Source of the DNA: Rhina ancylostomus
Taxonomy: Eukaryota
DNA: 64,000 nt
Assembly (NCBI GenBank): GCA_030265395.1
Contig: JARFYF010000057.1
Coordinates: forward strand, 8,070,977 to 8,134,976
Direction: 5' to 3'
The first letter of the stretch is position 1, and the number at the start of each line of letters is the position of its first letter. The position numbers and the translations under genes are program-made. Below are positions 7,701-61,000 of this stretch, piece after piece. The notes under the pieces were generated by a model that made no database searches, was not told the DNA's origin, and saw only the letters and a program-made list of their open reading frames with translations.

Positions 7701-9269
7701 TTCACCCAGTTACGTGATGAACCATGCAAAACAGTTTTAGTTAATAATCTTTTTTATTGAGGCACCTTAAAGTCATATATTCATGCTGGGTTAACAGGAC
7801 TTTCCTACAATGCTTGACAAAAAGTAAATAATGTTTGGCCAGTTATCAGATTTAGCAGATACCCACTCCACGTCCTCCAGGATATCCTTGTCATTAGTGT
7901 TAATGGAGTCACATGGAGGATATCTGGTCAGCGATAAGTGTTCAAAAATCACTATTCACTGTTTTTGGCCTGTTGTAGCATACTTTCAAGCAAGAACAAT
8001 ACCTTACTTGCAACCAACCAGAACTTTTCTCATCATAATGCCCACTTGTGCTGGGCATGCATCTATCATGTCTCACAAGTGATGTCTTTTACTGGTGAGA
8101 GTGCATGATGAAATAGCCCACTAACAATCACCAGTGAAATAACAATGATCACTTAAAGGTGAAGGCAAACAAGGGGCACCTGTTACTCTGTGCTGTATTC
8201 CAAACAAGTGCCAAAATCTTTAAAGGATTTGAGCGTGTGAGATGCCTGGGTCAGAATATTATTTTAGGGTTTAGTAAATATGTTTCTGCCAAGGATAACC
8301 ATGAATGATTCTTCTTTCCTTTCAAACAAAATCTAATTCTCCCTTATAACAGAAATGTTAACTTATCACTCCAAGAATCAAATGGGAAGGGTATCAGGTG
8401 AGTTCAGTGGAATGATACCCATGACAAGTCACAATCTTCAAGGAAACGGGTGGAAAATAATTTGAAAAAGTTTACAAAATGAAATCTGCGTTACTACAGT
8501 GAAACAGTGCAACAAGATGAATTTTGGTCTGTCTTAGTATTGTGTTCCTATTCATTTCCCTCATCACAGGATATTTCAATAGGATAAAGTTCACAGTGCA
8601 GATGAGAAGTAGAATACAATACTCTTAACACCTGAAATTGAGAAAAGGAAGATTCTTAAATGATAGAACCACAGTGCATTTCTAAAAATTAGGTAAGAGC
8701 AGGTACTGGACTTCTCTGATGCTCTTTCCATTTGGCCTTCCTTGGCAGAACGCATAATATTCTTAGGAGGGCAATCTGCCAAATACAAGGTGCTTTCACT
8801 TTAAAAATACTATGATAATCCAAAAATTCAAACATCAAGGTATTTTCAGCAAATACCAGTCAAATTGCTGATTTTTGTTAACAAATAAAGGATGGTGAGA
8901 GAGAAGTAACAGTTACATTTTTCTTGTACCTGGTTTATCTCATCCAAACCTGACATTTAGTTGGGTCCTGCCAGGTTCAGACCAGACAGTCAGGCTATAC
9001 TGCAATGCATTACAGAGCTAGTCTGGACAAAAGATGCCACAAGGCTTTCTTCTATCCCTGGATGATTTGCTCATTGTAATTACAATGAAAACATAAAAGA
9101 GGGGGCAAACACAGGGCAGACACACATTCACAGAGTTATTCCTTTCTCATTCTTGATTTCATGATTTTAAAATCCAAAATGCAATCACAGGAGACAGTTT
9201 GCACACAGTAACATTCTCCAAATGGTAATGAGATTATCAACCATTAGTTCATTTCAATGGTATTGAATA

Positions 9270-9450
9270 AAAGATGAATGCTGCTTGAACAAAGCAAGAA
9301 TGGAGAAACCCTTCTTTAAATAATGTCACAGGATCTTTAATTCCCACCCCCTGACAAAGGAGGAGTGACATTAGGCTACTCATCTCATTTAAATAATCAA
9401 ACACAGCAATTCTCAGGATGGCACTAGTTTGTCTGCCTATAAACATGCTG
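9270..9450 (-). mobile_element. Ancient Deu-domain SINE remnant
   Basis: Reverse strand resembles the Deu core (atgagatg...aggggg...taaagatcctgtgacattattt). Highly diverged. Confidence 0.4.
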
Positions 9451-10799
9451 CAGGAACGAGCATGTAATAAGTCCATGATCACCACCACTGAGTCCAGTTT
9501 CCATCATAACCATTCAGCAGGGATAATAGGCAAGTTAAAAAAAAGAAAACATGATATAATGGCAGATAAATGCTCAGAGGGAAATCACTAAAATGCATTT
9601 TATGAAAAAAGATTTGAAGATAATGGATGGGAAAATGCTCGTGTGGAGCACAGGCCCTGGTAGAGACTGCTGGGCTCACCAGCCTTTTTCCAAACTGTAT
9701 AGCTTGCATGCATTTCCTGGTAAAGACATCCTGGCAACACCCTGGTCCAAGCACTGGCAACTGCTACATTAAATTGTCATCCAAGCAAAGGACGAGAGTG
9801 CATTGTAACAGGCACCAATAACTGCTGGACTGTTTACCACCTAATCCCCTCTCATCTCCATCAACCTGACCCAAACATCAGGATGCAAGCAAAAGANNNN
9901 NNNNNNNNNNNNNNNNNNNNNNNNNNNNNNNNNNNNNNNNNNNNNNNNNNNNNNNNNNNNNNNNNNNNNNNNNNNNNNNNNNNNNNNNNNNNNNNNNNNN
10001 NNNNNNNNNNNNNNNNNNNNNNNNNNNNNNNNNNNNNNNNNNNNNNNNNNNNNNNNNNNNNNNNNNNNNNNNNNNNNNNNNNNNNNNNNNNNNNNNNNNN
10101 NNNNNNNNNNNNNNNNNNNNAATACTCACGCTACGAATAAAAAAAATCTTGAAAATCTTGAATTTATATCTTAACAAAATTGAAAAGGGATAGTAACATT
10201 GTTCAGACATCAATGGCACATGGAGCAAAGTTTTATTCTTAATATGCTCTTGAGAAACAAAATTTAATGTGCTTTAGGCAAGGGTTGAAAATTGGGGAAG
10301 TTGAGGCTTGTCCACTGTGGCACATTCATAACACAAGGTAAAATTGCACAAACTAAAATGTTATTGTTGGAGGAAAATTTGAGCTAATTAAACAAACTTC
10401 TAATGTTCAAAATTTGTAATTAAAAGGGGTAATTTGTACAATTTAACATGAGATTGAAGACAGAGCTTTAAAAATACAACTTCAACTCCTAAATGAAAAA
10501 GAGGTATATGGAAAATGAGGTATATGGAAAATGAACTTAACATCTACAGTGAAATCTTGAGAAAATTTAGTCTTTTGTGTTCTTAAGCATGCTTTCTTTG
10601 TTTCTTTCAACTCTCTGAAGACCAGATAAAAATTCAGAAGTTTTGGATATAAAATGTGAAATGAAAGTTGACTTTAATTAACTCATTTCAAAACAGTAAA
10701 ACCAAACGCTAACAAAATAATCTCTGAACACTCAGATTAGTGTGGGTTTATGTCATGACTTGTACAGTGCTGAATCTACCAATTGGGTTTTTTTATTTT

Positions 10800-11215
10800 A
10801 ATTGGTAGAATGTGATTTGTGGCAATTCACATGGGTCTCTGATGTTGGAACCTCAACTTCTTGAACCATATTTCCGAACAGCTTGGATGATGGGAAAAAC
10901 AGCCACATACCAATAACATAAAGAGAGTCAACAATGTCATCAGCGCCACTGAATGATAAAAGACAATGAATTGCCAAAATTGTGACAAATGGATTTCAAT
11001 TTAGGCAAGTGTAAGATCAGGAACCTAAAAACAAAAAAAAAACACTTTCCAAATGGTGAAAAGCCAGAAATAACAATGCTCCAAAGATTTAGAAATCCAT
11101 GTGTACAGATTATTAAAACAACTGACAGGCACTAGCAATGGAAAATGGGATTGATATAGGTGGGTACTCTGGTCAGTATGGAAATTCCCGTTTCTGTTCT
11201 GTACATCTCTATGAC
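10800..11215 (+). mobile_element. Highly decayed CR1 RT fragment with 3' tail
   Basis: Eroded GxVLGPQ-like and WQMxFN-like segments, then a tail-like tctgttctgtacatctctatga. Confidence 0.45.
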
Positions 11216-11319
11216 AAGAAGGGAGAGATCAAGGTAGAACTGCATAAAACACAAATCAAGTTACCCTGAAAGTATATTTTAATTCTGATCAGCATGCTCT
11301 GATGACAACTGAATTCTAC

Positions 11320-12770
11320 AACTTCAGGTAACTCATTTTTTCTGTCTACATTAGAACTGGCCATTTCTGATCTAAGTTATCTATCTGTGATATTGGCTCA
11401 GTTTTTCCTCTATTAGCACATACTGATCTGCTGGATTCGTCCAAAAGCTCTGGATTTTGCGGCATTTTACTCTTTGATTTGTATCAACACCCTCTAATTG
11501 GCTCCATTAACCATCAGCCATAACTTATCTCCATCACAACCCTGCCCTCACCTCATCATAGATAATCCCTTCATCTACTAATCCCTCCCCAACCTCCTGT
11601 GCAACTTAAATCTTGTTTTTCTCTCTTTCCCAGTTCTGACTTCAAACTGAAACATTACCTTTGTTTCTCTTCCCATAGATGCTGCCTGACCTGCTGCAAG
11701 TTTCCAGCATTTTGTTTTTATTTCATACAGAAGACAAGATGCTGTCCCTGGAGCTTAAGTTGGGCCTCAATGGAGCAGCAGAGAAGGCTACAGAGTGGGA
11801 GTGGGATGGAAAATAAAAATGACAGCAACTAGAAGTTCAAAGTGCCTGCAGATTGAACAAAAGTGTTCCATGAAGTGGTCACCCATTCTGCTTTTATTTT
11901 CTCACACTGCTGAAATCCCATCATGATCACTAAACACAATACATTAGAGACTTGGCTCTACTTCCTTCAACTCTGCGTCCAGCAAGAACTCCATTTCATT
12001 CGGTCAGGTCCTCCACCTCTGTTGTATGTATGCTCCAATGATGAGACTTTTCACAAAGAGATCTCTGAGGTCTTGCTTTATCCTTGCCTATGGCTTCCCC
12101 TTTACAAGGGTCAACAAAAACCTCAACCACATCTCATGTATTTTGCACACCTCTGCTCTGATCCCATCTTCTCCCAGTCAGAACAAAGGTAAATACCCTA
12201 GCCCTCACATTCTACCCCAATAAATCATCCTTTGTAATTTCTGCCACATTTAGTATGATTCCACCACACATCTTCCCCTTCCAATATTCCAAAGGACCAT
12301 AAACTTCGCAACTCATTGGTCTGCCTTTTCATCTTCACCAACCATTCCCCTTGTCATAACACTTTTCCATTCAACCATAAAAAGGTACAACTTCTCTTTT
12401 ACTTTATCCGTTACCACCATACAGTGCCCTGAAGAGTCCTTGCAATCCAGAGTATATTGTATTCAGGGAGCATCCGTGTTCAGTCNNNNNNNNNNNNNNN
12501 NNNNNNNNNNNNNNNNNNNNNNNNNNNNNNNNNNNNNNNNNNNNNNNNNNNNNNNNNNNNNNNNNNNNNNNNNNNNNNNNNNNNNTGTTCAGTCCATGGC
12601 GTGACGACTTTCCAGTTCCCTGCCATTTGAACTCTGCATCCCATTCCCACTTTGACTTATGGTCTGTGCCTCCAACAAGGAACAACATAAACTTAAGAAA
12701 CAGCATCTTATCTTCCATTTATCCATGTCGCAGCCTTTGGGTCGCTATACTGAACTCAACAATTTCATTT
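11320..12770. mobile_element. Cluster of Penelope-like fragments in mixed orientation
   Basis: Plus-strand pLTR at 11631-11725 (gatgctgcctgacctgctg), minus-strand endonuclease piece at ~11735-11930, plus-strand RT C-terminus/endonuclease remnant at ~11940-12770 (CSNDETFH; HKLKKQHLIFHL). Confidence 0.75.
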
Positions 12771-15274
12771 AACATTTAATACTTTGTAAAATTCACTGCA
12801 TTATCTCTGATGCATTTTTATTTCTTGATATCTTACAACTAAACAATTCCTCATCTTTCTCATACTTTTCATGAAGCTACCAATTCTTAGCATTACTTTA
12901 ACTATTTCCAAACCTTATAGTGTCCTGTATTCTAAGGCTTAACCTATCACCTAGCTTTGTCACTTTGGAAAAAATTCCAGCAAACATTTAAATAGCTGAA
13001 AAACATACAAATGCATTTTGAATTTCTTTAGGTGTAATAGATATTAGAATATTACAATAAGAAAATACTGAACTTCCAGACTTTACTCATCCATTCCAAA
13101 TACTACTAGGTAGCAAACAGCTTGGAATATAGCCTGGAATGATTTCTCTTACCTCTGCTCCTATTTGCATAGATTCATCAGGAATGTAATTAATATCATT
13201 TGTTATATCATCACTACTGCAAACTTAAAGTACTGGCAATCCACAGAACAAAGTTATGGGATTGAACAATTGGAAGGAACCATGGGGAAAAACTACCATT
13301 CACTCTAATTAAATTACATTCAGCAAATCCCAAAGATGAAATTTAATCCCATGCTATAAGTTATGAAAACAAATACTTCTTTAATTTTTCTAGTGACCTG
13401 CACTGTGGCTCTTCCACAAATTATTTTAATGAATCACTTTGTAAACACTTATACATTTACTTCTCCACCTCCCAGATTTGCCTGACTACAAGTCAATCCA
13501 AGCCTTCTGTCTCTGATCCAAACTTTCCAGCAATGAAAAATGTAATATTGCATGGGAATATGAATGTTAATCAAAATACTCTATTCCCACACTTCAGCAA
13601 GCATTAGGAACTTTAGGAGATGAAAAAGAAATACTGGATGAAGGGATGGGAAAAACTTCACTGAGTAGAGCACAAAAGTGCTTTTTGGGAAGGATAACAT
13701 TAGCATTTCTTAATCATGAACATAAATGTTTATAAATGTCAGTAGAACCTATAGTTCAACTATAAATACCATCAAAAAATTACTAACCCAGAAAGTGAGA
13801 AGCAAACATTTTTGGTATTGAACATGAGTGAAGTTACAGCATTAGATCTTTAGACGAAGAGCACATTCAATTGAGTGAACCTTGTCGGCTGAGGGCAGAG
13901 AAATATCTGTTAACCCTTCTTCTCTCTCCTACCACCTCAGAGATATCCAGGTTCCTCTTGGAACCCTATAATTTCCACTCCAGGACACTGGATCCTGGGC
14001 ATTTTCACAGCTACTCCCCAGCGGAACATCACAAAACATTGGAACTATTCCAAAAGTCACTCTCACTCAACTGCTCATTCCCCTTGGATGAAATCTGGGC
14101 AGCAAATCATAGCATTGGCAAATGTAAACTTTCTAGCAGAGATTAACTAGTTTATTAACTTAAAGCTCTGTTCAAATCATTTTACTTCCTTATCCTTGGA
14201 ATACTGAGGCAAATTCCGAAACCATATTGTCACTATAGCTGGGAACAGTTAACCATGTTGAATGGGATCTTAAACAACGGCATTTTTGTATATTGTTCAG
14301 CAACATGGTTGGGATGAAATTGTACAATGTACCCATTAACATAAAAGGTTTGTATATGCATGTTCTATGCCAAGAAGTAATGTTGATACAGTTGCATTTT
14401 TTTGAATGTTTCAGAAATTCTACTTCCATTGGAAGCATGGAAACTGTGAAACTATTATCTTCTCGGAGCTGCTTTCAAGTCTCCCCCATAAAACCTACTC
14501 TATTCCTCAAAGTAGAACTGCTGATGTCATCTAAACAAAAAATATTTGGCAGCAAAGATAGTTTAAACAGAATTTGTATAAACCCAGTGTACAATGATGT
14601 AATTCAATGCAATTATTGGCTCAGCTACATTGCCTTGCAACCCACCAGCAGTCAAATGAGCTGCCAAAACTCAATCTGCAGCCTGAAATTTAATATCATA
14701 TGTGCAACTTATTAAAGATTCACCAGCAACCCTGCAGTCTCAAAGGCATTTTCAATTTAAGAATGCTGCCTGGTAAAGTCTATCAAGACCTTGAATTTGC
14801 CTGATAATTTTACAAGCATTCCTTTTCATTAACACTAACACCTAACAGTTCATCTGGTAAGCTGTAAAGACACTACATAGTGTAACATTCAATTCTGAGA
14901 GGTTGCCAGCTACTATTTCCACATATTCAGTTTGATATTTTACCTGGCAGAAGATGCTCCAACTGGCCTCAATATTTCTGAGTCCTGGAGCAAAAAGAAA
15001 TGTTCTAGATTTCTTATCATCTGGACACTCCACCAGCTTGTTCAGCTACATCACTCCCTCCTTCTTCCCAGAAAAATGGGAACTTAAAACCCATTGGAAA
15101 AGTGTATGTGAATATGTATTATGCCCATTTGGATACNNNNNNNNCAAAGTCAATTTTGGACCCGCAAAGGCTATGGAAGTCACTGCACGAAAGGGTGTAG
15201 AAATTTGTAATTCACACCCACAAAAAAATTCACCTGGCTCCTCAAACCTGCCTGCCATTTGACATGATCGTCGA

Positions 15275-15900
15275 ACAGTACAACACAGGAACAGACCCTC
15301 TGGTCCACCATGGCAATGCCAACCATAATGCCAATCTAACTAATCCCATCTGCCTGCCAATTGTCTATGTCCCTTTATTCCCTGCCTGTTAAATGTTGCT
15401 ATCGTATCTGTTACCAGCTCCCCTGGCGATGTGTTCCAGGTACCTACCATTCTGTCTAAAACAAAAACTTTCCTTGCACATCTCCTTTAAACGTTCGCCC
15501 TCTCATCTTAAACCTATACCTTCTAGTATTTGACAATTCCATCACATTAAAAAAAAGACTATCATGCTATCTGTGCCTCTCATAACCTTATATACTTCTA
15601 TCAGGTCACCCCTCAACCTCTGATGCTCCAGAGGAAACAATCCAAGTTTGCCCAGCCTCTCCTTACAGCTAACACACTCCAAACCCAGCAACACCCTGAA
15701 CTTCTTCTGGACCCTCTCCAAAGCCTCCACATCCTTCCTGTAGTGTGGTGACCAGAACTGCACACAAGATTCCACATATGGCCTGAGTTTTATAAAGCAG
15801 CAACATCATTTGGCAACTTTTATGCTCAATGCCCTGACCAATGAAGACAAGCAGCCATATGCCTTCTTTACCCCTTATCCATTTGCATTACCACTTTCAG
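15275..15900 (-). mobile_element. CR1 LINE 3' portion
   Basis: ORF 15542-15775 CVQFWSPHYRKDVEALERVQKKF...RLRGDLIEVYKVMRG is classic CR1 ORF2 C-terminus. 3' tail at ~15275-15370. Confidence 0.9.
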
Positions 15901-18900
15901 GAAGATAGAATTCCCCACAGGATTAGAGAATACTGAACAGACTTTACACACAAGAACAGAGACACACACACTCTAGAATCTAGGAATTTTGCCCAAGCAG
16001 ATTTCCACACATTCTTCCAACAGGATCAAGTTGAGGATAGGAAGAACTGAATCCTTGACCACTTTTTTCCTGCACTTAGATTTGCTTTGACACTATTGGA
16101 TTTAGCAGTGTTCTAAATATTAGGTAATAGTTTTGCAACAAAAGATCCTTGCAGCATAACTAATCTATACATTCATGTATCCCAACTCAAGTCCTATTTC
16201 TATAAAATGAGTGGAAAATATCTACTTGCATCTGAGGAATATTTTTGCACAAATCCCTTCTTTTGAACTGCTACATATTCAAATTTGAAAGCCAATGAAC
16301 AAACTAATATAGAAATTCACTTCTGAAGTGTTTTAAGGACATGGTAAAGTACAATTCCTTCTCTTTATTGACATCCACATACAGTTTTCATAAGTCTCTG
16401 GCTCTTGCCAATATCTTAAAGATGCTCTCTGCCAGAAACATCTGTATCTTACCAAATTTGTTCATTAGCCTGGTACACAATTGGATCTCTCAAGCAATGC
16501 TGAGATGTATTGTCTATCCTTAATTATCAATCAGGTGGCAGTTCAGAGAACCATAATGGTAGGTCTGTAAGTGAGTACAGCTGAGCTCAGGTAATGATGA
16601 TAGATCTCCTTGCCTGAAATCACAAGTGAGCCAGATGGGCTTGTACAATAATTAGGTTGTTTCATTGTCACTATTACTGAGATGGGCTTTTAATCCAACT
16701 TGACCATCCTGCAGAAGCACAGACCACACTGCCACTAGGTCAAGACTGCACCTGCAGTGGACTAATGGTGTTATCAACAATAAACAAAATAGCCAATAAA
16801 TATGAATGCATTGGTAGGTTCTCCATTCTTGCTGGGTTACAATCAGCTACTGGGAAACTTGATATTTTTGTTTATACTGATCAATGTTATAAGATGAATA
16901 ACATCTTATCATCGCTTTTACATAGCATTTTTATTGTGATTGTTCACCTTTAATGTTGAACTCTAAGTGAGATGTACAATATTACATTGCAAGATTCTTT
17001 CTTTTTACAAGTCGTAAGGACTCGTTCTAGAAATATAGTCGTAGTCGAACCACTTCAGTATGTGCAGAACCATATCCTCATGGTGGTTTGCTCTGTTGTG
17101 TGCACCAACTGAATTGAGAAGTGTCACGTGGCCTGAGTGGGCCAACATGGAAATGGGGAAACAGGATGTTTTGTTTAAAATATCTCAATACAAAAAGTGT
17201 GGTGACACTTGTGGGCTGCCCCCAGAATACAATACTCTACGCAAAAGATGCATTTCATTGTGTGTTTCAGTGCATGTGACTAATAAAGAAATCTTGCCTT
17301 GAAATTGAGCCCTTGTAAAGCTATTCCCATCATTAAATATAAAACTAGAGTGGTTGAATCTACATTGATCAAATGCTTGCACCAAATCATTTTGATACAT
17401 CTTTACCTTGCTCGATTTCTTCCTCCCACTTTCTGTTTACTTCTCCAAGCCTTTCCTCAAAGTGCAGAGTCTCACTCAAGCACCTTTCCAGAGTGTTGGT
17501 ATTCATGAGTAACAAGATTTTTCTTTCCATGATTTGGCATAGACATCACCCACTTCGGGGACTACAACCAAGCTAGATTTTGTTCATACCTCTCGATATA
17601 AATTTCAGACTAGTTCCTATTTTGGAGACAGAAGAGACTGCAGATGCTGGAATCTGGAGCAACAAACAAACTACTTGAGGAAATGAGTGGGTCATTTCCA
17701 AATGGTTCATTTGCAGTGAGCAATTTTCTTCCCGAGTTATCAATGAATTGAATTTAAAACATATGACAGGTTAACTTCTCACAGACACATGGTTCCACAT
17801 AGGCAAGTTATCCACCTTGGTCCGAGCACTTTCTAAATAGTGAGAAGCTTGAGAAATTAAACCTGCAAGAAGACCGAGGCATTCATGTAAAAAAAAAATC
17901 ACTGCAAACTAATCAGGAGGCATCCAGGCTACAAATCAATCTGCTAGATCCTACAACAGCCAGGAAGATAGCTATATGAACAATTTCCAATTTTGTCTCC
18001 CTGTTAAGGTTATGGAATGCAGTTCCAAGGGACATCATGCCCTTCAGTGACCATTTTATCCCAAAGAAGGAATACCCACAAGCAATTCAGCTTGGGTGGG
18101 GTGAGACTGTGTGGTAATCCAACTGATCCTAATCTTTAAACAGGACATAGATAATAACACACTTGTTTTCTGGTTTAGAAGCAGTAGCTAGATGTGAGCA
18201 TAATGACCATTACCCCCCATTCCAATATCTGGCAACTGGATTAGACACTAAGCTTACAAATCAGTACCATCAGGTGAAAAATTTGCAATTGAGCTGTCCT
18301 GAAGCTTAATGTGTACACAAGTAAACAGTAGTCAGCCAGGTTTAGTGCACAAAAGCCTTTGCTTGATTTTTTTTCCCCCGTGTACATTCTGAGACTATGC
18401 AAGGTGTTATCAAAGCTTGCATACCTTGTGATGTCTGGAAAGCTTTTAATTTCTAACCATAATTCTGTTTGATCCAAAGCATTCCAAGCCCACTAATTAT
18501 TTTTGGCACGTGGATCCAGTCCCCTTCTCCAAAAAGTTAGATTCTTCTAGTTTATAGCTAAATTCAAACTAATGTGGGACTAAGCCAAATAAAACCAGAA
18601 ACCTCAGATATGATCCTGGTTCCATGCTAAGTGATGACTTCATCTCAGGTTTGCAGAAGAGGTGTAATTGGCTTTGGTCCCCTTGGTTAGAGGGGAGAAA
18701 TAAATTATTCAAAAGGTATTGCACACAATTATTACACAACTATTTCTCCTGGAAAGAGATCAGGTGGTCTTGTGTTGATGCACATAACTGGGATCCAAAA
18801 TCAATGATAACTTCACACACACACAGCCACAGAGTAGTACAAGGCAGCTATTGGCCATGGAACCTTTGTCAAAGTACATGCTAGTGGTTTTAGAAGAAGG

Positions 18901-32892: not shown

Positions 32893-33712
32893 GAAATCAG
32901 AATCAGGTTTATTATCACTTACATATGTCGTGAAATATGTTGTTTTACAGCAGCAGTACAGTGCAAGACAAAAATTACTGCAAGTTATAAAATAAATATA
33001 TAGTGCAAAAGAGGAATAACAAGGTGAAAAAAAGATGCTGGAGGAACTCAGCAGGTCAGGCAGCATCCAAGGAGAAAAGCAGGTGGTCAATGTTTTACAT
33101 CAGGACCCTTCTTCAGGACTGAAGATAGGAAAAGGGGAAGCCCAATGTGTGGGGGGGAGAAACAGAGCAGTGATAGCTGCTTCCTCTCCTTATGCCACCT
33201 GCCTCTATACCTTTGACACATCCCCTGGTGGATCTGCTCTCCCCTCCTGCCCCACATCTGCATATCACTATATCTTACCTTCATCTACCTATCACCACCT
33301 TGTGCCCACCCAACCTCCCAACATCCATGGATGCTGCCTGACCTGCTGAGTTCCTCCAGCATCTTGTTGTTTCTTTTCCCCCCCATCTAGATTCCAGCAT
33401 CTGCAGTCCTTTATTTCCCTAGGAATAAAGGGGCAGTGTTTGTGGGTTCCTGGACCCTTCAGAAATTTGATGGCGGAGGGAAACAAGCTGCTCCTAAAAC
33501 GTTGTGAGTCTTCAGGCTCCTGTACCTTGTCCCCAGTGGTAGTAATGAGAAGAGGGCACGTCCCAAATTGTGAGGGTCCTGAATGAAGTAGAGCCGCTGG
33601 CATGCCTTCTTTGTGACTGCATCAATGTATTGGGTCCAGGATAGATCCTCTGAGACATTGATGCCCAGGAACTTGAAGCTGCTCACCCTTTCCACCGCTG
33701 ACCCTTCAAATG
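32893..33712 (-). mobile_element. Rex/Babar 3' fragment with a nested Penelope-derived insert (~33025-33420)
   Basis: ORF 33459-33800 contains VERVSSFKFLGINVSEDLSWTQYIDAVTKKACQRLYF, with the tail ending aataaacctgattctgat. The insert is flanked by aggaataa direct repeats. Confidence 0.8.
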
Positions 33713-34379: not shown

Positions 34380-35090
34380 AGCGCCTTCTGCACGCACACA
34401 CACACAGACAGACAGAAAAAGTTGCATTGAAACAGAATGCGCTGACTGGGTCGGACTTGCTGAAAACTCTCACTGAACCAACAGCAACGAGAAGGTCGGA
34501 GCGGGGACGTGGCTGCGAGGGAAGAAGTTGCTGCACCGGCCGCTGTGTCCGCTGGTGCAGCGGGGCTGGCGCTGCCGGGGCCGAGCCCGTCCCCCCCGCT
34601 CTGGNNNNNNNNNNNNNNNNNNNNNNNNNNNNNNNNNNNNNNNNNCCACCCCCGCCTTTACCTGACTCGCTTTGTAAAACTGCTTCTTCAGCCCCGCCAC
34701 CGACATCCTCGAGCACTTCCAATACGCTTCAGGGAGGAGGGGGGGAGGATAAAGAAAGGCCAGCGACGCCCGGACCGCACTGCCGTCGGTGAGCCGCTCC
34801 GCTCCACAGCGAAAGAACCCCGACCAACACACTGACAGGGATCTTACATGGCAACCGCGGCTACTTCCGGCAGCGCGACAAGGAGCGCCACCCGCCGGTG
34901 GGGAACCGGGAGCCCGGGCCGCCGGACGGGTCCTCCAACCACAGCGCCACCCGCCGGCGGGGAAGCAGGAGACCAACCACCCCCAAACCCGACCACGGGC
35001 CGGGTCCTCCAAACACAGCGCCCCCCGCTGCACTGACGGAGTCTAGACCTGGCGCCACCTGCTGCTCTGGAAGAGCGAGATTCTCCATCT
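34380..35090. promoter_or_regulatory. CpG island / promoter of SH3GL1, with ETS motif CCGGAAGT (minus strand, 34863-34870)
   Basis: Sharp rise in GC and CpG against the AT-rich, CpG-depleted background, overlapping exon 1. Confidence 0.85.
34662..34706 (-). CDS. SH3GL1: Endophilin A2 coding exon 1 (MSVAGLKKQFYKASQ), amphipathic H0 helix
   Basis: ATG at 34706-34704, 45 nt, donor CAG/gtaaag. [14 protein letters not shown] distinguishes A2 from A1 (FHKATQ-KVSEKV) and A3 (FHKASQ-LFSEKI). Adjacency to CHAF1A agrees. Confidence 0.97.
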
Positions 35091-48543: not shown

Positions 48544-49110
48544 CGGCGGCGGGAAGCCGGAGGGGGGAAGAGGAGCAGAGCAGAACAGCGCGGCGCGGCC
48601 GGTCCAGCCAGCCAGCCACCCACAGCGGCTGTCACTGACCCCAGCGCGCCGCCCGGGGGAGGGGCGGGGGATGCTGCAGACCCCGACACCAGGACACCAG
48701 CAACAGGCGGCGGCAGCGAGAGAGGACCAAGGTGGGGGAGTGAGTGAGGTGGAGGGAAGGAGGGAAGGAGGGAGGGCCCGGGTGAGGCTCGCAGTCGGTG
48801 ACAAGGCCCCGGCCGAGCGGCTGGAGGGGGGACCGGCCCGGTGCTGACAAGGCAGCCGAACACCCACTGACAGGCCGGGGACTGCCAGCGGCTCACTGCC
48901 GGCTCCGGCCAAGAGGGGGATGCACAGATGCTCTTGGATCCACGGCAGCTTTTTAAAGAAATTAAACATTATTTTAAGGCGCTGACAGGAAGTTCACCTT
49001 GGTCCCAGTCACTTTCACCCAGCTGCTGAGCCGTAGAAAGGCGGGAGAGCCAGAGGCTCGGATTAAGTGGCGCCCCATTCAGAGTCGATCAGGAGCGATC
49101 ACTCGCTTAA
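48544..49110. promoter_or_regulatory. CpG island of CHAF1A, with E2F-type site GGCGGGAA (48548-48555) and GC box (48661-48670); the core promoter probably lies in the gap at 48211-48543
   Basis: High GC/CpG and motif matches. CHAF1A is an established S-phase E2F target in mammals. Confidence 0.8.
48671..48731 (+). CDS. CHAF1A: Probable CHAF1A coding exon 1 (MLQTPTPGHQQQAAAAREDQ + G)
   Basis: ATG inside the CpG island; 61 nt ending in phase 1 at CAAG/gtgggg, the phase exon 2 requires. Similar layout to the short, poorly conserved ML... first exon of human p150. Peptide similarity itself is weak. Confidence 0.7.
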
Positions 49111-51535: not shown

Positions 51536-52940
51536 GTGTATGTATTTTGATTCTGAGATTCTGTATTTTAATGCAGGCACTAGGAAAGGAAAACCAGTTT
51601 TAATTGGTATTTTTCAAGTTTTGATAAGAATGACACCTCTCAGACCTTTCAGGGGATTTGACAACTGAAATTACTTTGTTACTGTTGAAATTAGAATTAT
51701 GAGCCCTCATCTTTATGTTTCATCTTCAGCCTGTTACTTATTGTTTTTTCTTCAATGGTTAGCTGAGATTTAAAACTTCTCATTAGGATGCAATTCTGCC
51801 TTTTGTACTTGGTGGTAGCACTGGTGTATTGGTGCAGGGCATGCTGTGCCATTGTTCGCTAAGAAAAAGTAATTCATAGATCAGAACTATTGCTTGGTAA
51901 CAGGATATTTCTTCCTCTTTCCTACCCCCACCTCCATTCAAATAAGCATTTCTGCTTATCTATCATTGTAGGCAATGATGTTCATCATTCAACCTTCTCA
52001 CAAGATATGCTGTAGGTTGTAAGTACTAGCATCTGTAATTAAGTATTAAAATCAATCCAGCATTGCCCTAAATATTTGAAATGTTTATTAAACTACCAAA
52101 AATTGAACAGTTCTAGAATACTTCAAGATGGCTAAAGTAGATTGATTCTTTCTTAAATTATTACACTGCTGAAGCATTGCAATTTAGTCTGATGAAACTG
52201 AATGGCCTTGCAAGACCAAGATCAGATAATTCCGCCTTTTCCTGGGATATTTGAGTCTGATCAGAGTGGCCAAATACTCTCTTTAGGGTAGCAATTGAGG
52301 TATTATGTCATTGTAGGATTTCAATATTTTTCTGTAGATGCTCTCTCCATCAAATGAAGAATTTGCTCTCTGTTGATGCAACCTCTTTCTCAATTTTTCA
52401 TTTTGCTCCCCCAAAGTAAGAATATATTGGGTGTTCAGTATTTTAGTATACAGATTGAACTTGAAATCCTTCAAATGGATTATTTTGGTAACTTGCATAT
52501 TAATACCTTCAGGATTTTTAACAGCAAATATGGAAGCCACATGTGGAATAATTGGTTGCCAGAGAGGAAATCAATATTTTGAAAATATGCATGAACAAAA
52601 AGGCTTCAGTTGAGTTTCATTGTGAAAATTTTAATAATGACTTCAAAATTATCTGACACGATTGTCATCTTCATGATGATTTTGAGGTGGGAGAAGGGAA
52701 AGTGCTGATGATGGTGGAAAATACTTTGGATCGACCCAAAAGTCAAATTCATCAGAAGTTTGAGTGTTTGAATACATGAAGACCTGCAAAACATCAACTT
52801 TTGAAGTTATTCACAGGATTAATTATTGATGTGCATATTATTTGAAGATATTTAACTTGCTCCAAGGGCCATCAGTATAGCTTCCATCGCCAGGCTGAAA
52901 TCGGTAAGATTATTTGCAAAGAAATGCTTGATATTAAAGG

Positions 52941-53508
52941 TGTTGTGATATACATAGAATATAGTTCAAAACCTGATGTTTCCAGCCTTTACTTGTCATT
53001 TCACATAAGAAAAAGTGCCAAGTGTGTTGGTTGGATTCTCTGAAAAGATTATGGACTTTGTCCGTATTGGTAAGTATGCACTTAAATAGAATTCTAAATA
53101 CTGGGTGTTATGATTGAGTTGTGTTCTTGTTAGGATATTTAAGTGATGTTTAATCAATATTTCAGCTAGTGTTTTCAAAAATCTTGTTTTGAGTAACTTT
53201 CTTTTTCTTTCTTTCGCAGTAATGGAGGAGTGCAAGTTGAAAGCTGCTACTCCAGCAAAGAAATTAGTGCAAGGTAATTTGTTGCATTTTTTGATGTTGA
53301 TATAATGGGTTATAATGTGGTCTTTTCATGATTTTGAGCAATGTTGTGGCGCCTTCGGTGACTATGATGTCTCCCCTGATTAAACAATATTGGCCTAATA
53401 TTTAAGTGAATCCAACACATCTGTCTTTCACGAGGAAAAAAATGCAAAGTTTTAAAAAAAGTGCTGAAAACATCAGGTTTTGAACTATATTCTATGCATA
53501 CCACAACA
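52941..53508. repeat. 46-bp inverted repeat (52941-52986 / 53463-53508) bracketing CHAF1A exon 2
   Basis: 43 of 46 positions are complementary, with a 29-bp perfect core catagaatatagttcaaaacctgatgttt. Confidence 0.92.
53220..53273 (+). CDS. CHAF1A: CHAF1A exon 2 ((V)MEECKLKAATPAKKLVQ)
   Basis: Strong polypyrimidine acceptor ctttttctttctttcgcag and donor CAAG/gtaatt, 54 nt, phase 1/1. Resembles human MDCKDRPAFPVKKLIQ. Confidence 0.92.
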
Positions 53509-53769
53509 ATATTGCATACCTACGTGCCCAGTAAACTCTGACAGGACATATTTGTGAATGGGCATCAACTGATTTGCAGAATGACTTCTGCATTAAGTTT
53601 GCCCATCACATCTGTGCTAGCTCTATTGCATTGAGCAATCATGCATTGGGGTTAGGAAACTGCTCAATTGTTTATTGGCTTATTGTCATAAAATCATAAA
53701 CTTTTATAACACAAAAGGAGATTATTTATTTAATGGTCTCCTTGCTTGTCCAAAAAACAGCAACCCAGC

Positions 53770-54310
53770 CTAATTCCTCCCCACCCCTCACTCTTCCTTT
53801 TCCAGCATAGCAGCTCAGTCACTCTCCTTTGGGCTTTTACATTTTTAATTAGCCTGTCACGTGACACTGTCAAAAATCTTGCTGACATACACCGAGTACA
53901 AACACAATTTGTTACCATCTCAAAACGTTCTAATCAAATTGGCCCAAAACAATTTTAACAAATCTGTGACGATACCTTATTAATTTTGGCTTCCTAAATG
54001 AAGGATTATACAGTCTATCAGACTTAATTCAAACAATTTGCCCAACTCTGAAGATGAGCAACCTGGCCTGTAATTCTTCAGTTCATCTATTCCTCACTTA
54101 AATAATAGTGCATTAGCATTCTTTTGGCTTTACTCCTGGAGTCAGGGAGGATTGACATTGTAGTCAGCACTATTAGCACCCAACCCTTGCTGTTTTTAAC
54201 TGTCTGGGATGTATTTAAACCTGAAAATGTGTCCACTTCCAAGATTTTAATCCCATTATCTGCTTCTACTATGTTTAAGCTATCCTGTATTTCAGACTTG
54301 TCCTGCTTAA
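53770..54310 (-). mobile_element. Highly decayed CR1 fragment
   Basis: Eroded RT-region similarity (ctggcctgtaatt, actcctggagtcagggagg). Confidence 0.4.
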
Positions 54311-54762: not shown

Positions 54763-55583
54763 CACGATTACCTTTCAAACGTCTCAATCCCATACCAAAG
54801 CCAGAAAATGAAGAGACTGATGATGCCAAGCGGACAAAAATATCTCCCAATTCACCTGGGCAGCTAACTTCAGAAAAACTGATGGTCTCTGTTGAGGATG
54901 TTGAGAATGACTGCAAAATAAACTTAGATGGCCAGACTGGAAATTCACCGACGTTGGATGGGGATCTTGTTCCCTCCAAACTTGTTAATGGGAAAGGACC
55001 TCTTGATGGTTTCTTGAATTTCATTCAGAAGAGTAAGCCCGTGCCCAAGATGCACAGTAGTGAACTCCATTCCACAATTGACTTGACATGTGATTCTAGC
55101 AACGAAGTCATGGACAGTGCAGACACCACAGTTATAAAAGTAGTGCCTTCTAAATGTCTGAGTAAGAAAACAAATGTTGATTGTGAAAAAACATGCAACT
55201 GGTTGAGAGCTAGTTTAACAAAAGCAGTAACTTCTGAATCTATGAATTCTGGAAATTCAGTACCTGGGGAGACTAGCAGTGAAACGAAGGCCAAGGAAGG
55301 GCAAGAAATTGAAAGTGCAAGCCCTAGTTCTATCAGCTTACTTGGAAGCAGAGTTCCAGTGGTGGTATTGAAAGATATAATGGCTGATAAATCATGCTGG
55401 GCTGGGAACCTGGCAAAGGGGATAGTCCAAGTTGAAGGAATGCAATCATTTGATAATGAAAATAACAACTCGCCGATCAGCTCTTTATCAAGTTCATTTT
55501 CATCTGTTGAGAGTTCACCAGAAGCAAGAACTCCAAAGGATAAGAGGAGTCCAGTATCTACATTAACGACTTCAGGCAGCAAG
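54763..55583 (+). CDS. CHAF1A: CHAF1A large exon 3: PIP1 core (Q)ARLPF, LVNGKGPLDGFL block, SIM-like STIDLT, HP1-binding PxVxL (RVPVVVLKDI), Ser-rich PEST-like region
   Basis: Acceptor ttatgttgcag, 821-nt open exon in phase 1/0, donor AAG/gttgat. Motifs match human p150 ARLPFKRLN, KLVNGKGPLDNFL, VIIDLT and KVPMVVLQDI. Confidence 0.95.
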
Positions 55584-58095: not shown

Positions 58096-61000
58096 TGCCA
58101 CTTTTCAGTTATGTAAAGATGCAATAGCTTCAAATTACCCACTTAATAATCTTGTTGCTAGGTAAAACTGGAAACTGAATGCATTTTTTTTAAATGTGTT
58201 AGGGAAAATATTGGTCATTTTTGAGATAACTGTATAGCCTTTTACCTGTTGCTTCCTCAGTCCATTTAGTATTTTGGAAGTGGATTGTGAGCAGAACTGC
58301 ATCAATATTTCTGAAGGTCATGTCATATCCTACTGCTTTTATTTTAAATGTTCTTAACTGTTTGAATTATTTTTTACTTGCAATTTAAATGGCAGGTACT
58401 GAAAACTTGGATTGCTAAATACGATATCCCTGCTGTGAACTGTTGAATTTTGCAGCATTACTGTTCTGTTTATTAATGAATTCTTGTCTTTGACTTGGAC
58501 ATTCTTTTAACTAAGTAGGGTTTACTCCTGCTTCCTATTGCTTAATTATTCTATCTGTTGCCTACCCTTTCTGAGTAGGGTGCAGTTGGTGGTGCCAAGA
58601 TGAACAGTGCTACCCTTTTCTCAAAGCCAATCTTGTGTGGGATATAGAACATGAAATTGAAAACCTGGCTCAATTTCAGACCTCTTGAAATTCAAAGAAA
58701 GCATCTAAAGAGAAAATTTGAAGTTGACTTCATCCTTGTTTATGAATTATAGCAAAATCAGAAAGGATGATAATATGTAAAATAACAGCATTTTACATGG
58801 TGGTTCCTTTTAGAGAGAGATACTTCGTACTTGAGTAACTTTATGAAATTCCACCGTACCCAGCAAAGTCATAGCTGTAACCAAGTGTGCTCTTCGTCCA
58901 ACAGTATTGCTTGAACCAGCTTTAAGTCATGCATGGCTAACCTTTATACAGCTGGTCTTCATAGAAATTTAGCTGAGAGATTTTTTTTTTGTCCTACATG
59001 CCCTCTTCTTGCATCAGAGGAAGAAATGCTTTTTGGTCTCTCCCCACTACCCAACCGCCCCCTCAGTTATTCAATTGTCTACTCTGGAAAAATAAGGTGT
59101 GCATTATAAAGATAATAAAATTAAATTACTTTCCTGGATGGTGTCTTCCCTGTTGGTACAACATCATGAAATCATGGTCTCAACTATTTTCTGCCTATTG
59201 ATTCAGAATGCCCTTTTATGTAACCAGACAAACTAAAACCAAACACACGATCTCTGTTCTGGGTTGGACTAACTAATCTCTTTTAAGAATGGAGGAAGAT
59301 TCTATAGTTGATCATGGGACTGCTGAATTAGAGAATAGAAAATTGTTGAACTTGTCCTGAATTTATCCAACAGTGCCTTATTCTTGTTGATTTCAAATGT
59401 TCAATGCAAATAGGATAAGCCCTGGTTGTGTCGCCACTGTCCAGTGTATGTTGGACCGCTAATGTTCACTGCAAATGCCACTTGGATATGCATTGTATCC
59501 GTTTTATGAGTGAGATCTTGTCTGAATTGAAGCTAAAACTAACATTCATTGATTATATTGTTTCCTGCTTGGTCTCCCACAAAATGTCCCATTAACATAT
59601 AACCATTTCTGCATCAAAGGAACCTTGGAATTGAGGGTATAGTAAAAGAAAATGGACTTTAATATCTCTGACTGTAGCCTCATTTCCACAGTCCTTTTGA
59701 TGCAGAAATGGTTATATGTTAATAGGATATTTTGTGGGAGGTCAAGCAGGAAACAATGGGGATTAGAAGGGTTTGGCATTGGTACTTGAATAGGGTCTGG
59801 TCGGCAGATCTAAGCTGTCTGTCTTTTACCTCTTGTGTTTCAAACCCTGGCAATATAAACACATTTTGAAGGATATTGTGTTATAACACTCTATCATTAT
59901 ATTGGTCAATGTCAATCTGAACAAGGTACATAATGCTAGTAAAAGCATTTATCAAACTTTTGAAAAGTAATTTGTAGTATCAATAGGACCTTTTAGGATA
60001 GGCTTGCTTCCCTTCTAAATTTTAATATCTCCTTTGCCTCTGCATTTTACCTTGTTGCATTATTTAGAACTCTGATATTCATAAAGCTTTCTATCATTAA
60101 TATTTTTTAAAAATTATTTGAATTTGGTGCATGTTACAATGAAAGATGTTTTTCTTTATTGTTTTAAACCTGTGGAACTCCTGCATGGACTAGGCACAGT
60201 GGAAAATTTTAATCTATTCTCTGGATAACCTTAAAATCCAGAACCAGGTTTAAGAGTTTGCAACTAGTTAAGAATAGTTTATTCATATCCAAATCCATGA
60301 AACAAGTAGGAAATGTCCAAAGGCCCTAACATCTTTACAAGCTTTTAAAATTTTGTCCAGGGATATCATTCAGTAGATTTGTGCATTCTTTTTCTGAATT
60401 GTTTTGGAAGTGGCACTTGGTGTAATTATGATTCTTAGCATCTTGATTAACTTATTGAAATGGTAGCATTTGGTCAATGACCACTTTGGTATACTTTTGA
60501 AATCTATAAGGAGCTAAGTAATGTGATGGGAGGAAAATAAAAATTATCTCTTCTTGGATATAGATTTAAATCCAGCTAGAACTGCGTGGGAATTACCAGT
60601 GCAGAGTTTGACGTGCAAAGTTTTAATAATTTGAGTGCATTATTCTGACTCTGGGCATGCACAGTCATTGCAATCTAGTTTCAAAATGATACCAATTCAT
60701 TATCAAAGATTAATAGTTGGGAAAATTCAAAATATTGCACCAGTATTATAGTAAATATATCCTACAAATACAGCTTAAAAGTAATTTTAAAAGGCCTTTT
60801 GATATATATCATGAAGCTTTTCACATCACTCAAGCATACAAATGTGACATAATGAATTGAGCTAATAATCCAAATTTTTGAATCCATTTTAAAAACTTTG
60901 AAATCCAGCTCAAAATCCTAGAAGTGTTAATAGTACTTCGAAAAAATATTGGGGTCACCACGTAGATTTCTTGGTTTAGAGACATGTTTTGGGTCTCATT

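What the first reader, a model, noticed from the sequence alone, without database searches (positions are those of the whole stretch)
52941..53508. Long intronic fold-back centred on CHAF1A exon 2
Seen: arms 52941-52986 and 53463-53508 pair at 43/46 positions with a 29-bp perfect core, lying 233 nt before and 189 nt after the 54-nt exon. Further helices nest inside in the correct order: 53023-53038 with 53408-53419, cacttaaata 53079-53088 with 53399-53408, tgtttaatca 53147-53156 with 53377-53386, and a weak tcaaaaatc ~53175-53183 with gattttga ~53330-53338. Together they outline a ~570-nt imperfect hairpin with the exon at its apex. All three mismatches in the main helix are A:C in the sense RNA (G:U in the antisense). 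The arms match none of the repeat families I recognise here. Inference: this could be a pre-mRNA structure that loops out exon 2 and/or an ADAR substrate, since A:C mismatches are favoured editing sites.
Basis: partly seen in the sequence, partly recalled or inferred. Interest (0 to 1): 0.75.

Follow-up and report, generated by a model that had tools for sequence, protein, structure and literature searches.

The report
Inverted duplication around CHAF1A exon 2
A real, single-copy pair of mirror-image 46-base sequences sits in the introns on either side of a small exon of a ray's chromatin-assembly gene, but it is likely an ordinary leftover of a local copying error, one of many in this genome, and nothing yet shows that it controls splicing.

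Summary
The 46-bp inverted repeat is real (43/46, 29-bp perfect core), single-copy (2 hits in 2.2 Gb) and brackets the 54-nt, frame-preserving exon 2 of CHAF1A in a sawfish-like ray. The '570-nt hairpin' is overstated: without the main helix the interior folds like shuffles (z -0.1), and only one of four inner helices is predicted.

The repeat predates relatives about 6% diverged. Its left arm changes no less than the rest of the intron (4/46 vs 28/514). Two of the three proposed editing adenosines are genomic G in relatives. Covariation is unresolved because 47 of 87 difference rows were not shown.

Similar repeats with 0.3-1 kb spacers occur in 12 of 180 sampled 10-kb stretches; 6 of 7 checked genome-wide are local.

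For function: RefSeq models of 2 of 9 batoid species (both skates) skip exactly this exon, removing the Q of the N-terminal PCNA-binding motif, and two changes in this lineage restore pairing. No RNA reads were examined.

Best reading: a template-switch-type inverted duplication relic with at most an incidental splicing effect. The scan has noted similar single-copy repeats around exons in other genomes.

The parts
52941..52986 (+). Left arm of the inverted repeat, CHAF1A intron 1
   Evidence: single-copy; covered in all 4 relatives
53463..53508 (+). Right arm of the inverted repeat, CHAF1A intron 2
   Evidence: single-copy; covered in 3 of 4 relatives
52987..53045 (+). Possible decayed inward extension of the left arm; its 9-bp end (53030-53038) pairs with 53408-53416
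   Evidence: anchored alignment reached by 27 of 2000 shuffles; helix probability 0.97
53401..53462 (+). Possible decayed inward extension of the right arm
53220..53273 (+). CHAF1A exon 2, 54 nt, phase 1-1, encodes (V)MEECKLKAATPAKKLVQ; skipping keeps the frame
   Evidence: the 3 listed differences in relatives are all synonymous (read against the codons)
53088..53214 (+). Intron stretch before the 3' splice site with no substitution shared by relatives C and D (D has 3 indels there)
   Evidence: largest-gap P 0.007, post hoc
48671..48731 (+). Coding part of CHAF1A exon 1 (ATG to 5' splice site, phase 1)
   Evidence: matches N-termini of batoid proteins
54763..55583 (+). CHAF1A exon 3, begins with (A)RLPF; 3' end read from the sequence
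   Evidence: 96% to Pristis pectinata CHAF1A

Best explanation
The two arms are a single-copy inverted repeat that likely arose once by a local inverted duplication (probably replication template switching) and is likely decaying neutrally; the pre-mRNA is predicted to form the 46-bp duplex around exon 2, with probably only an incidental effect on splicing. Shown: the repeat, its single-copy status, its presence in relatives up to about 6% diverged, no extra conservation of the left arm, and many similar repeats in the genome. Predicted: the duplex forms while the splice sites stay mostly open (unpaired probability 0.91 at the 3' site, 0.67 at the 5' site). Inferred: origin by template switching, and lack of a selected function.
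For: Only the two arms match a 26-nt core pattern with up to 2 mismatches in 2.2 Gb; DNA searches of both flanks hit only each other. The loop holds the ancestral exon in its normal orientation, with no target-site duplication of note. Background: 12 of 180 fixed-step 10-kb stretches (1.56 Mb) carry a sample-unique inverted repeat with arm >=35 and spacer >300, against 1 mirror repeat and 0 in shuffles. Of 7 checked genome-wide, 6 had arms that hit only each other among scored hits or had one distant 76% hit; 1 belonged to an old repeat family. That is one per 130-260 kb; assuming 200,000 exons, a few hundred would be enclosed by chance. A second single-copy inverted repeat lies in intron 3 of the same gene. 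Left arm 4/46 changes vs 28/514 in the other intron sequence (Fisher p 0.32); core 1/29. About 2.8 new defects per lineage are expected neutrally since the split from C/D, close to the 3 mismatches seen. The mismatches are A:C in the sense RNA, not the tolerated G:U.
Against: RefSeq models of Leucoraja erinacea and Amblyraja radiata join exon 1 to exon 3 exactly (2 of 79 chondrichthyan proteins; 2 of 9 batoid species; 0 of 13 shark and chimaera species). Two of the four visible changes on the path to this species restore pairing (52947 to G:C, 53464 G:U to G:C); rough post hoc chance is 1%, and the partner bases are not fully visible. The core is much better kept than the possible inner extension. 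The 46-nt test has low power. 47 of 87 difference rows were hidden, including changes shared only by C and D in the right arm, so compensatory changes cannot be excluded.
Confidence: 0.62

Rival explanations
1. A selected or co-opted long-range RNA duplex loops out exon 2 and tunes production of a CAF-1 p150 form lacking an intact N-terminal PCNA-binding motif.
For: Layout matches exon loop-outs (PMC10573301). Duplex -59.8 kcal/mol against about -22 to -24 for the validated human cases in that paper (different energy programs). The exon is frame-preserving, and exact skip isoforms are annotated in two skates. Two restoring changes. A 127-nt substitution-free stretch lies before the 3' splice site.
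Against: No skip form among 6 isoforms of the closest annotated species, Pristis pectinata. The left arm is not conserved above background and takes a 5-nt insertion at its inner end in C and D. No compensatory pair was seen among visible rows. The skates were not shown to carry the repeat.
Confidence: 0.15
2. An older, longer inverted duplication whose core is kept alike by DNA-level arm-to-arm conversion or template switching, without selection on the RNA.
For: 93% core inside a roughly 105-nt decayed alignment; restoring changes; the mechanism is described in PMC8794818 and PMC7954356. In background loci the arms are closer to each other than to outside copies.
Against: The restored pair at 52947 is adjacent to an unrepaired mismatch at 52948, which a conversion tract should have fixed too. 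The inner extension is only weakly significant (27 of 2000 shuffles when anchored, 235 of 2000 when free).
Confidence: 0.13
3. The arms are terminal inverted repeats of a decayed DNA transposon, or two inverted fragments of an old repeat.
For: The 568-nt span resembles a MITE, and one background case is an old repeat family.
Against: No other genomic copy, although the same search finds 70-77% copies of neighbouring repeats; it skips very common words. The spacer holds an exon conserved to tetrapods. No target-site duplication of note.
Confidence: 0.06
4. A functional ADAR substrate with specific edits at the A:C mismatches.
For: All 3 mismatches are A:C in a long duplex; incidental editing of such a duplex is likely on general knowledge.
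Against: 52952 is G in 4 of 4 relatives and 52948 is G in 2 of 4. The sites are deep intronic. Three of three A:C has a 1-in-8 chance among transition mismatches.
Confidence: 0.04

Closest known systems
Short-range template-switch mutations that create reverse-complement repeats (PMC7954356, passages read; PMC8794818, abstract and opening read; bioRxiv 10.1101/2020.03.06.980458, abstract and section 6 read)
   Same: A single-copy reverse-complement copy of nearby sequence with no repeat family.
   Different: No pre-event ancestor was seen, so the switch points are not shown. The 476-nt spacer is longer than most events in the bioRxiv section (majority under 50 nt; paired events mostly under 400 bp).
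[quoted passage not shown] PHF20L1 exon 6 and CASK exon 19 (PMC10573301, passages read)
   Same: Complementary regions lie wholly in the two flanking introns, more than 200 nt apart, enclosing a short exon.
   Different: Conservation above background was tested on the left arm and not met. Covariation is unresolved. No RNA contact, inclusion-rate or mutagenesis data.
Inverted duplications that cause exon skipping in patients: MANBA (PMC6549551, passages read) and CHM (PMC8756506, abstract read)
   Same: A local inverted duplication, attributed to a replication error, predicted to form a pre-mRNA hairpin.
   Different: Those are 1.7-13 kb, recent, include the exons themselves and have cDNA evidence. 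This one is 46 bp, purely intronic, old and shared by several species.
Non-repetitive inverted duplicates in vertebrate genomes (PMC5398296, abstract, passages and section 12 read)
   Same: An abundant class with spacers mostly under 1 kb, most without known function.
   Different: That survey covered 21 vertebrates with no cartilaginous fish, used much shorter minimum arms and focused on intergenic cases.

Membership tests
PCCR exon loop-out | Complementary regions fully inside the two flanking introns | tested here: met
PCCR exon loop-out | Arms conserved above intron background | tested here: not met
   left arm 4/46 vs 28/514, p 0.32; low power, right arm only partly visible
PCCR exon loop-out | Compensatory substitutions | tested here: inconclusive
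   none among the 40 rows shown; 47 of 87 rows hidden
PCCR exon loop-out | Enclosed exon is alternatively skipped | tested here: inconclusive
   skip models in 2 skates, none in 6 Pristis pectinata isoforms; no RNA reads examined
PCCR exon loop-out | Disruption and rescue changes splicing | not testable with these tools
   needs a minigene or antisense oligonucleotides
Template-switch inverted duplication | Single-copy reverse-complement copy of nearby sequence | tested here: met
Template-switch inverted duplication | Outgroup with only one arm that shows the switch points | not testable with these tools
   the relatives reached already carry the arms wherever covered; more distant introns were out of reach
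MITE or DNA transposon ends | Other genomic copies | tested here: not met
MITE or DNA transposon ends | Target-site duplication | tested here: not met
   only an offset 5-nt AT-rich match
Conserved ADAR editing site | Edited adenosine conserved opposite C | tested here: not met
   52952 is G in 4/4 and 52948 in 2/4 relatives; 53467 unresolved
Rfam RNA families | Match to a covariance model | tested here: not met
   52400-54100: one chance hit, E 0.41, outside the repeat

The most novel reading that the evidence does not exclude
Rays co-opted a local inverted duplication as a pre-mRNA switch that loops out CHAF1A exon 2 and makes a CAF-1 p150 isoform with a broken N-terminal PCNA-binding motif; the skip isoforms annotated in skates would be its product. 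It would be one functional member of a genome-wide class of single-copy inverted repeats with a preferred 0.3-1 kb spacing.
Probability: 0.12. Interest if true: 0.6.

Novelty: new member of a known kind. Interest (0 to 1): 0.2.

Why it matters
If neutral, it is a reminder that long single-copy intronic duplexes around exons arise often by mutation and are not evidence of regulation; here that background rate was measured. If it does drive skipping, it gives a natural splice switch for the N-terminal PCNA-binding motif of CAF-1 p150, which a review describes as binding PCNA strongly in vitro but dispensable for nucleosome assembly in vivo in human (PMC13604520). The side result, that such repeats prefer 0.3-1 kb spacers in this genome, may be the more useful lead.

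Tried and rejected
RNA: no RNA holder listed on record. No RNA run was laid, so skipping, back-splicing and editing in this species remain untested.

Relatives: relative E has no cover over the right arm and over 53074-53152; nothing is concluded from that. Changes shared only by C and D after 53363, and changes private to one relative, were not shown. A 39-nt piece in relative B matching the end of the right arm at 32/39 was treated as chance.

Libraries and literature: Rfam gave nothing. Searches for CHAF1A + exon 2 + skipping (3 papers, 1 listed, listing only), for CHAF1A splice variant / p150 / motif (5 papers, listings only) and for inverted repeats in shark genomes (12 of 79 listed) showed no description of this repeat or of this isoform. 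No supplements were read, and subscription papers are not covered.

Tetrapods: 85 of the 89 proteins with an N-terminal RLPF keep the exon-2 Q (95 examined). The other 4 are partial or odd starts, not clean skips. This test is blind where exon 1 has no ATG.

Considered and set aside: a circular RNA of exon 2 alone is unlikely at 54 nt (general knowledge, not tested); an assembly artefact is rejected because contigs of C and D span the stretch in one piece; an antisense RNA structure folds better, but no antisense transcript was sought.

Full report
Observation. The main helix is exactly as described: 52941-52986 with 53463-53508, 43 of 46 pairs, a 29-bp perfect core, three A:C mismatches, 233 and 189 nt from the exon. 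The 651-nt region folds at z -4.3 (sense) and -8.1 (antisense), and the helix has mean pair probability 0.92 in the sense ensemble. The inner helices exist as letter matches and exact 10-mers are modestly enriched (2 observed; 3 of 1000 shuffles reach that). But only 53030:53416 is predicted to form (0.97); 53079-53088 prefers a local partner (0.68 vs 0.03), 53147:53386 reaches 0.28 and the last helix 0.0. The interior alone has z -0.11. So the object is a 46-bp duplex, possibly with a decayed extension to about 105 nt, closing an ordinary multiloop; it is not a 570-nt hairpin.

Gene context. Exon 3 translates to a protein 96% identical to Pristis pectinata CHAF1A, so the organism is a sawfish-like ray. 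Coding exon 1 runs 48671-48731, exon 2 53220-53273 and exon 3 starts at 54763. Exon 2 is 54 nt and phase 1-1; skipping keeps the frame and removes (V)MEECKLKAATPAKKLVQ, including the Q of QARLPF. [quoted passage not shown] The splice sites are predicted mostly unpaired (0.91 and 0.67; polypyrimidine tract 0.44).

Copy number. Both flanks hit only each other in the own genome, and a 26-nt core pattern with up to 2 mismatches occurs only in the two arms. The DNA search skips very common words, but it did find 70-77% copies of old repeats next door. There is no Rfam match and no target-site duplication of note. A transposon origin is unlikely, also because the loop holds an exon conserved to tetrapods.

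Relatives. DNA contigs of 4 of the 18 runs listed, one each for organisms B, C, D and E, were laid on 52750-53750. They differ by about 3.5% (B, E) and 6.3% (C, D). The left arm is covered in all four and the right arm in B, C and D. Only 40 of 87 difference rows were shown; from their order I infer that rows shared by C and D are complete up to 53363 and hidden after it. Left arm rows: 52947 G>A (all four), 52948 A>G (C, D), 52952 A>G (all four), 52960 T>C (C, D), plus a 5-nt insertion after 52985 (C, D). Right arm: 53464 C>T (B, C, D). The left arm has 4 changes in 46 against 28 in 514 for other intron sequence (p 0.32), and the core 1 in 29. Two of the three proposed editing adenosines are G in relatives. 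No compensatory pair is visible, but partners of 52947 and 52960 in C and D could be among the hidden rows. Against my reading: two of four visible changes on the path to this species restore pairing (rough post hoc chance 1%), and a 127-nt stretch just before the 3' splice site has no substitution shared by C and D (largest-gap P 0.007, post hoc; D has three indels there).

Skipping. Among 79 chondrichthyan CHAF1A proteins (6 further cluster members were not listed), two RefSeq models, Leucoraja erinacea X3 and Amblyraja radiata X3, join exon 1 directly to exon 3. That is 2 of 9 batoid species and 0 of 13 shark and chimaera species; none of 6 Pristis pectinata isoforms skips. The test is blind where the model's exon 1 has no ATG. 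Three carpet-shark species have another N-terminus in place of exon 2. Tetrapods show no clean skip among 95 proteins. Whether skates carry the repeat could not be tested, and no RNA reads were examined, so the link between repeat and skipping is open.

Background. I scanned 180 fixed-step 10-kb stretches of the own genome (1.56 Mb without N). Twenty carry an inverted repeat (arm >=28, >=85%, spacer <=4 kb) with no other hit in the sample; 12 have arm >=35 and spacer >300. Controls: 0 in 765 kb of shuffles and 1 mirror repeat. Seven of the 12 were searched genome-wide. Five had arms hitting only each other among scored hits (in two of these only 40 candidates were scored, and one has an assembly gap in its spacer). 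One had a single distant 76% hit, and one lay in an old repeat family. The rate is one per 130-260 kb, or roughly 8,000-17,000 in the genome; with an assumed 200,000 exons, some 350-700 would be enclosed by chance. Many background duplexes are stronger than this one. The same gene has a second single-copy repeat in intron 3.

Mechanism. Most likely a replication template switch copied a piece of one flanking intron in reverse into the other before the split from C and D (inferred; no one-armed ancestor seen). The arms have since changed at about the intron rate (shown for the left arm, low power). The pre-mRNA can form the duplex once the right arm is transcribed (predicted). Exons inside stable intronic duplexes tend to be included less (PMC10573301, passages), and inverted duplications cause skipping in patients (PMC6549551 passages; PMC8756506 abstract), so a small incidental effect on exon 2 is plausible. 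Selection for it is not shown.

Comparison. It works like a PCCR loop-out in layout, but fails the conservation test as far as it could be run, so I do not file it as one. It is best filed as a non-repetitive inverted duplicate (PMC5398296) of template-switch type (PMC7954356; PMC8794818; bioRxiv 10.1101/2020.03.06.980458). Searches found no description of this repeat or isoform; only listings were seen and no supplements were read. Earlier notes of this scan report similar single-copy repeats at AFF4 and PRAG1 in other genomes; these are unchecked notes, not support.

Verdict. Real, ordinary in kind, function unproven. Interest 0.2; new member of a known kind; about 12% chance of a selected splice switch, worth 0.6 if true.

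Noticed in passing
own genome sample L007-L186 (e.g. L019:325-990, L031:9044-9547, L118:2360-3512, L128:2844-3445): Sample-unique inverted repeats have a preferred spacer: 14 of 16 with spacer over 30 nt fall between 320 and 1000 nt, none between 30 and 320 (post hoc P about 1e-7 against log-uniform). Some have sharp 89-90-bp arms at 97-99%. Unexplained; old transposon ends and assembly errors are not excluded for all of them.
   Followed up: partly
window 59557-59757: Second single-copy inverted repeat in CHAF1A intron 3: 87-bp arms at 87%, 27-nt loop, no other genomic hit.
   Followed up: partly
window 53088-53214: 127 nt before the exon 2 acceptor without any substitution shared by relatives C and D; may hold splicing elements. 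It includes a 12-nt direct repeat of 53398-53409.
   Followed up: partly
P0154, P0153 (skate CHAF1A isoform X3): Exact exon-2-skipped RefSeq models in Leucoraja erinacea and Amblyraja radiata, losing the Q of the QARLPF motif.
   Followed up: partly
P0175, P0172, P0167: Chiloscyllium and Hemiscyllium models have a different 19-residue N-terminus spliced to exon 3 that also ends in Q, so the motif is rebuilt.
   Followed up: no
window 33032-33073 / 33324-33365: 42-bp inverted repeat of a high-copy family (44 other hits in the sample); earlier scan notes describe Penelope-like fold-backs in this genome, not checked for this copy.
   Followed up: no
window about 34470-35042, minus strand: ORF containing MSVAGLKKQFYKASQ, recalled as an endophilin (SH3GL1) first exon, head-to-head with CHAF1A as in human (recalled).
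   Followed up: no
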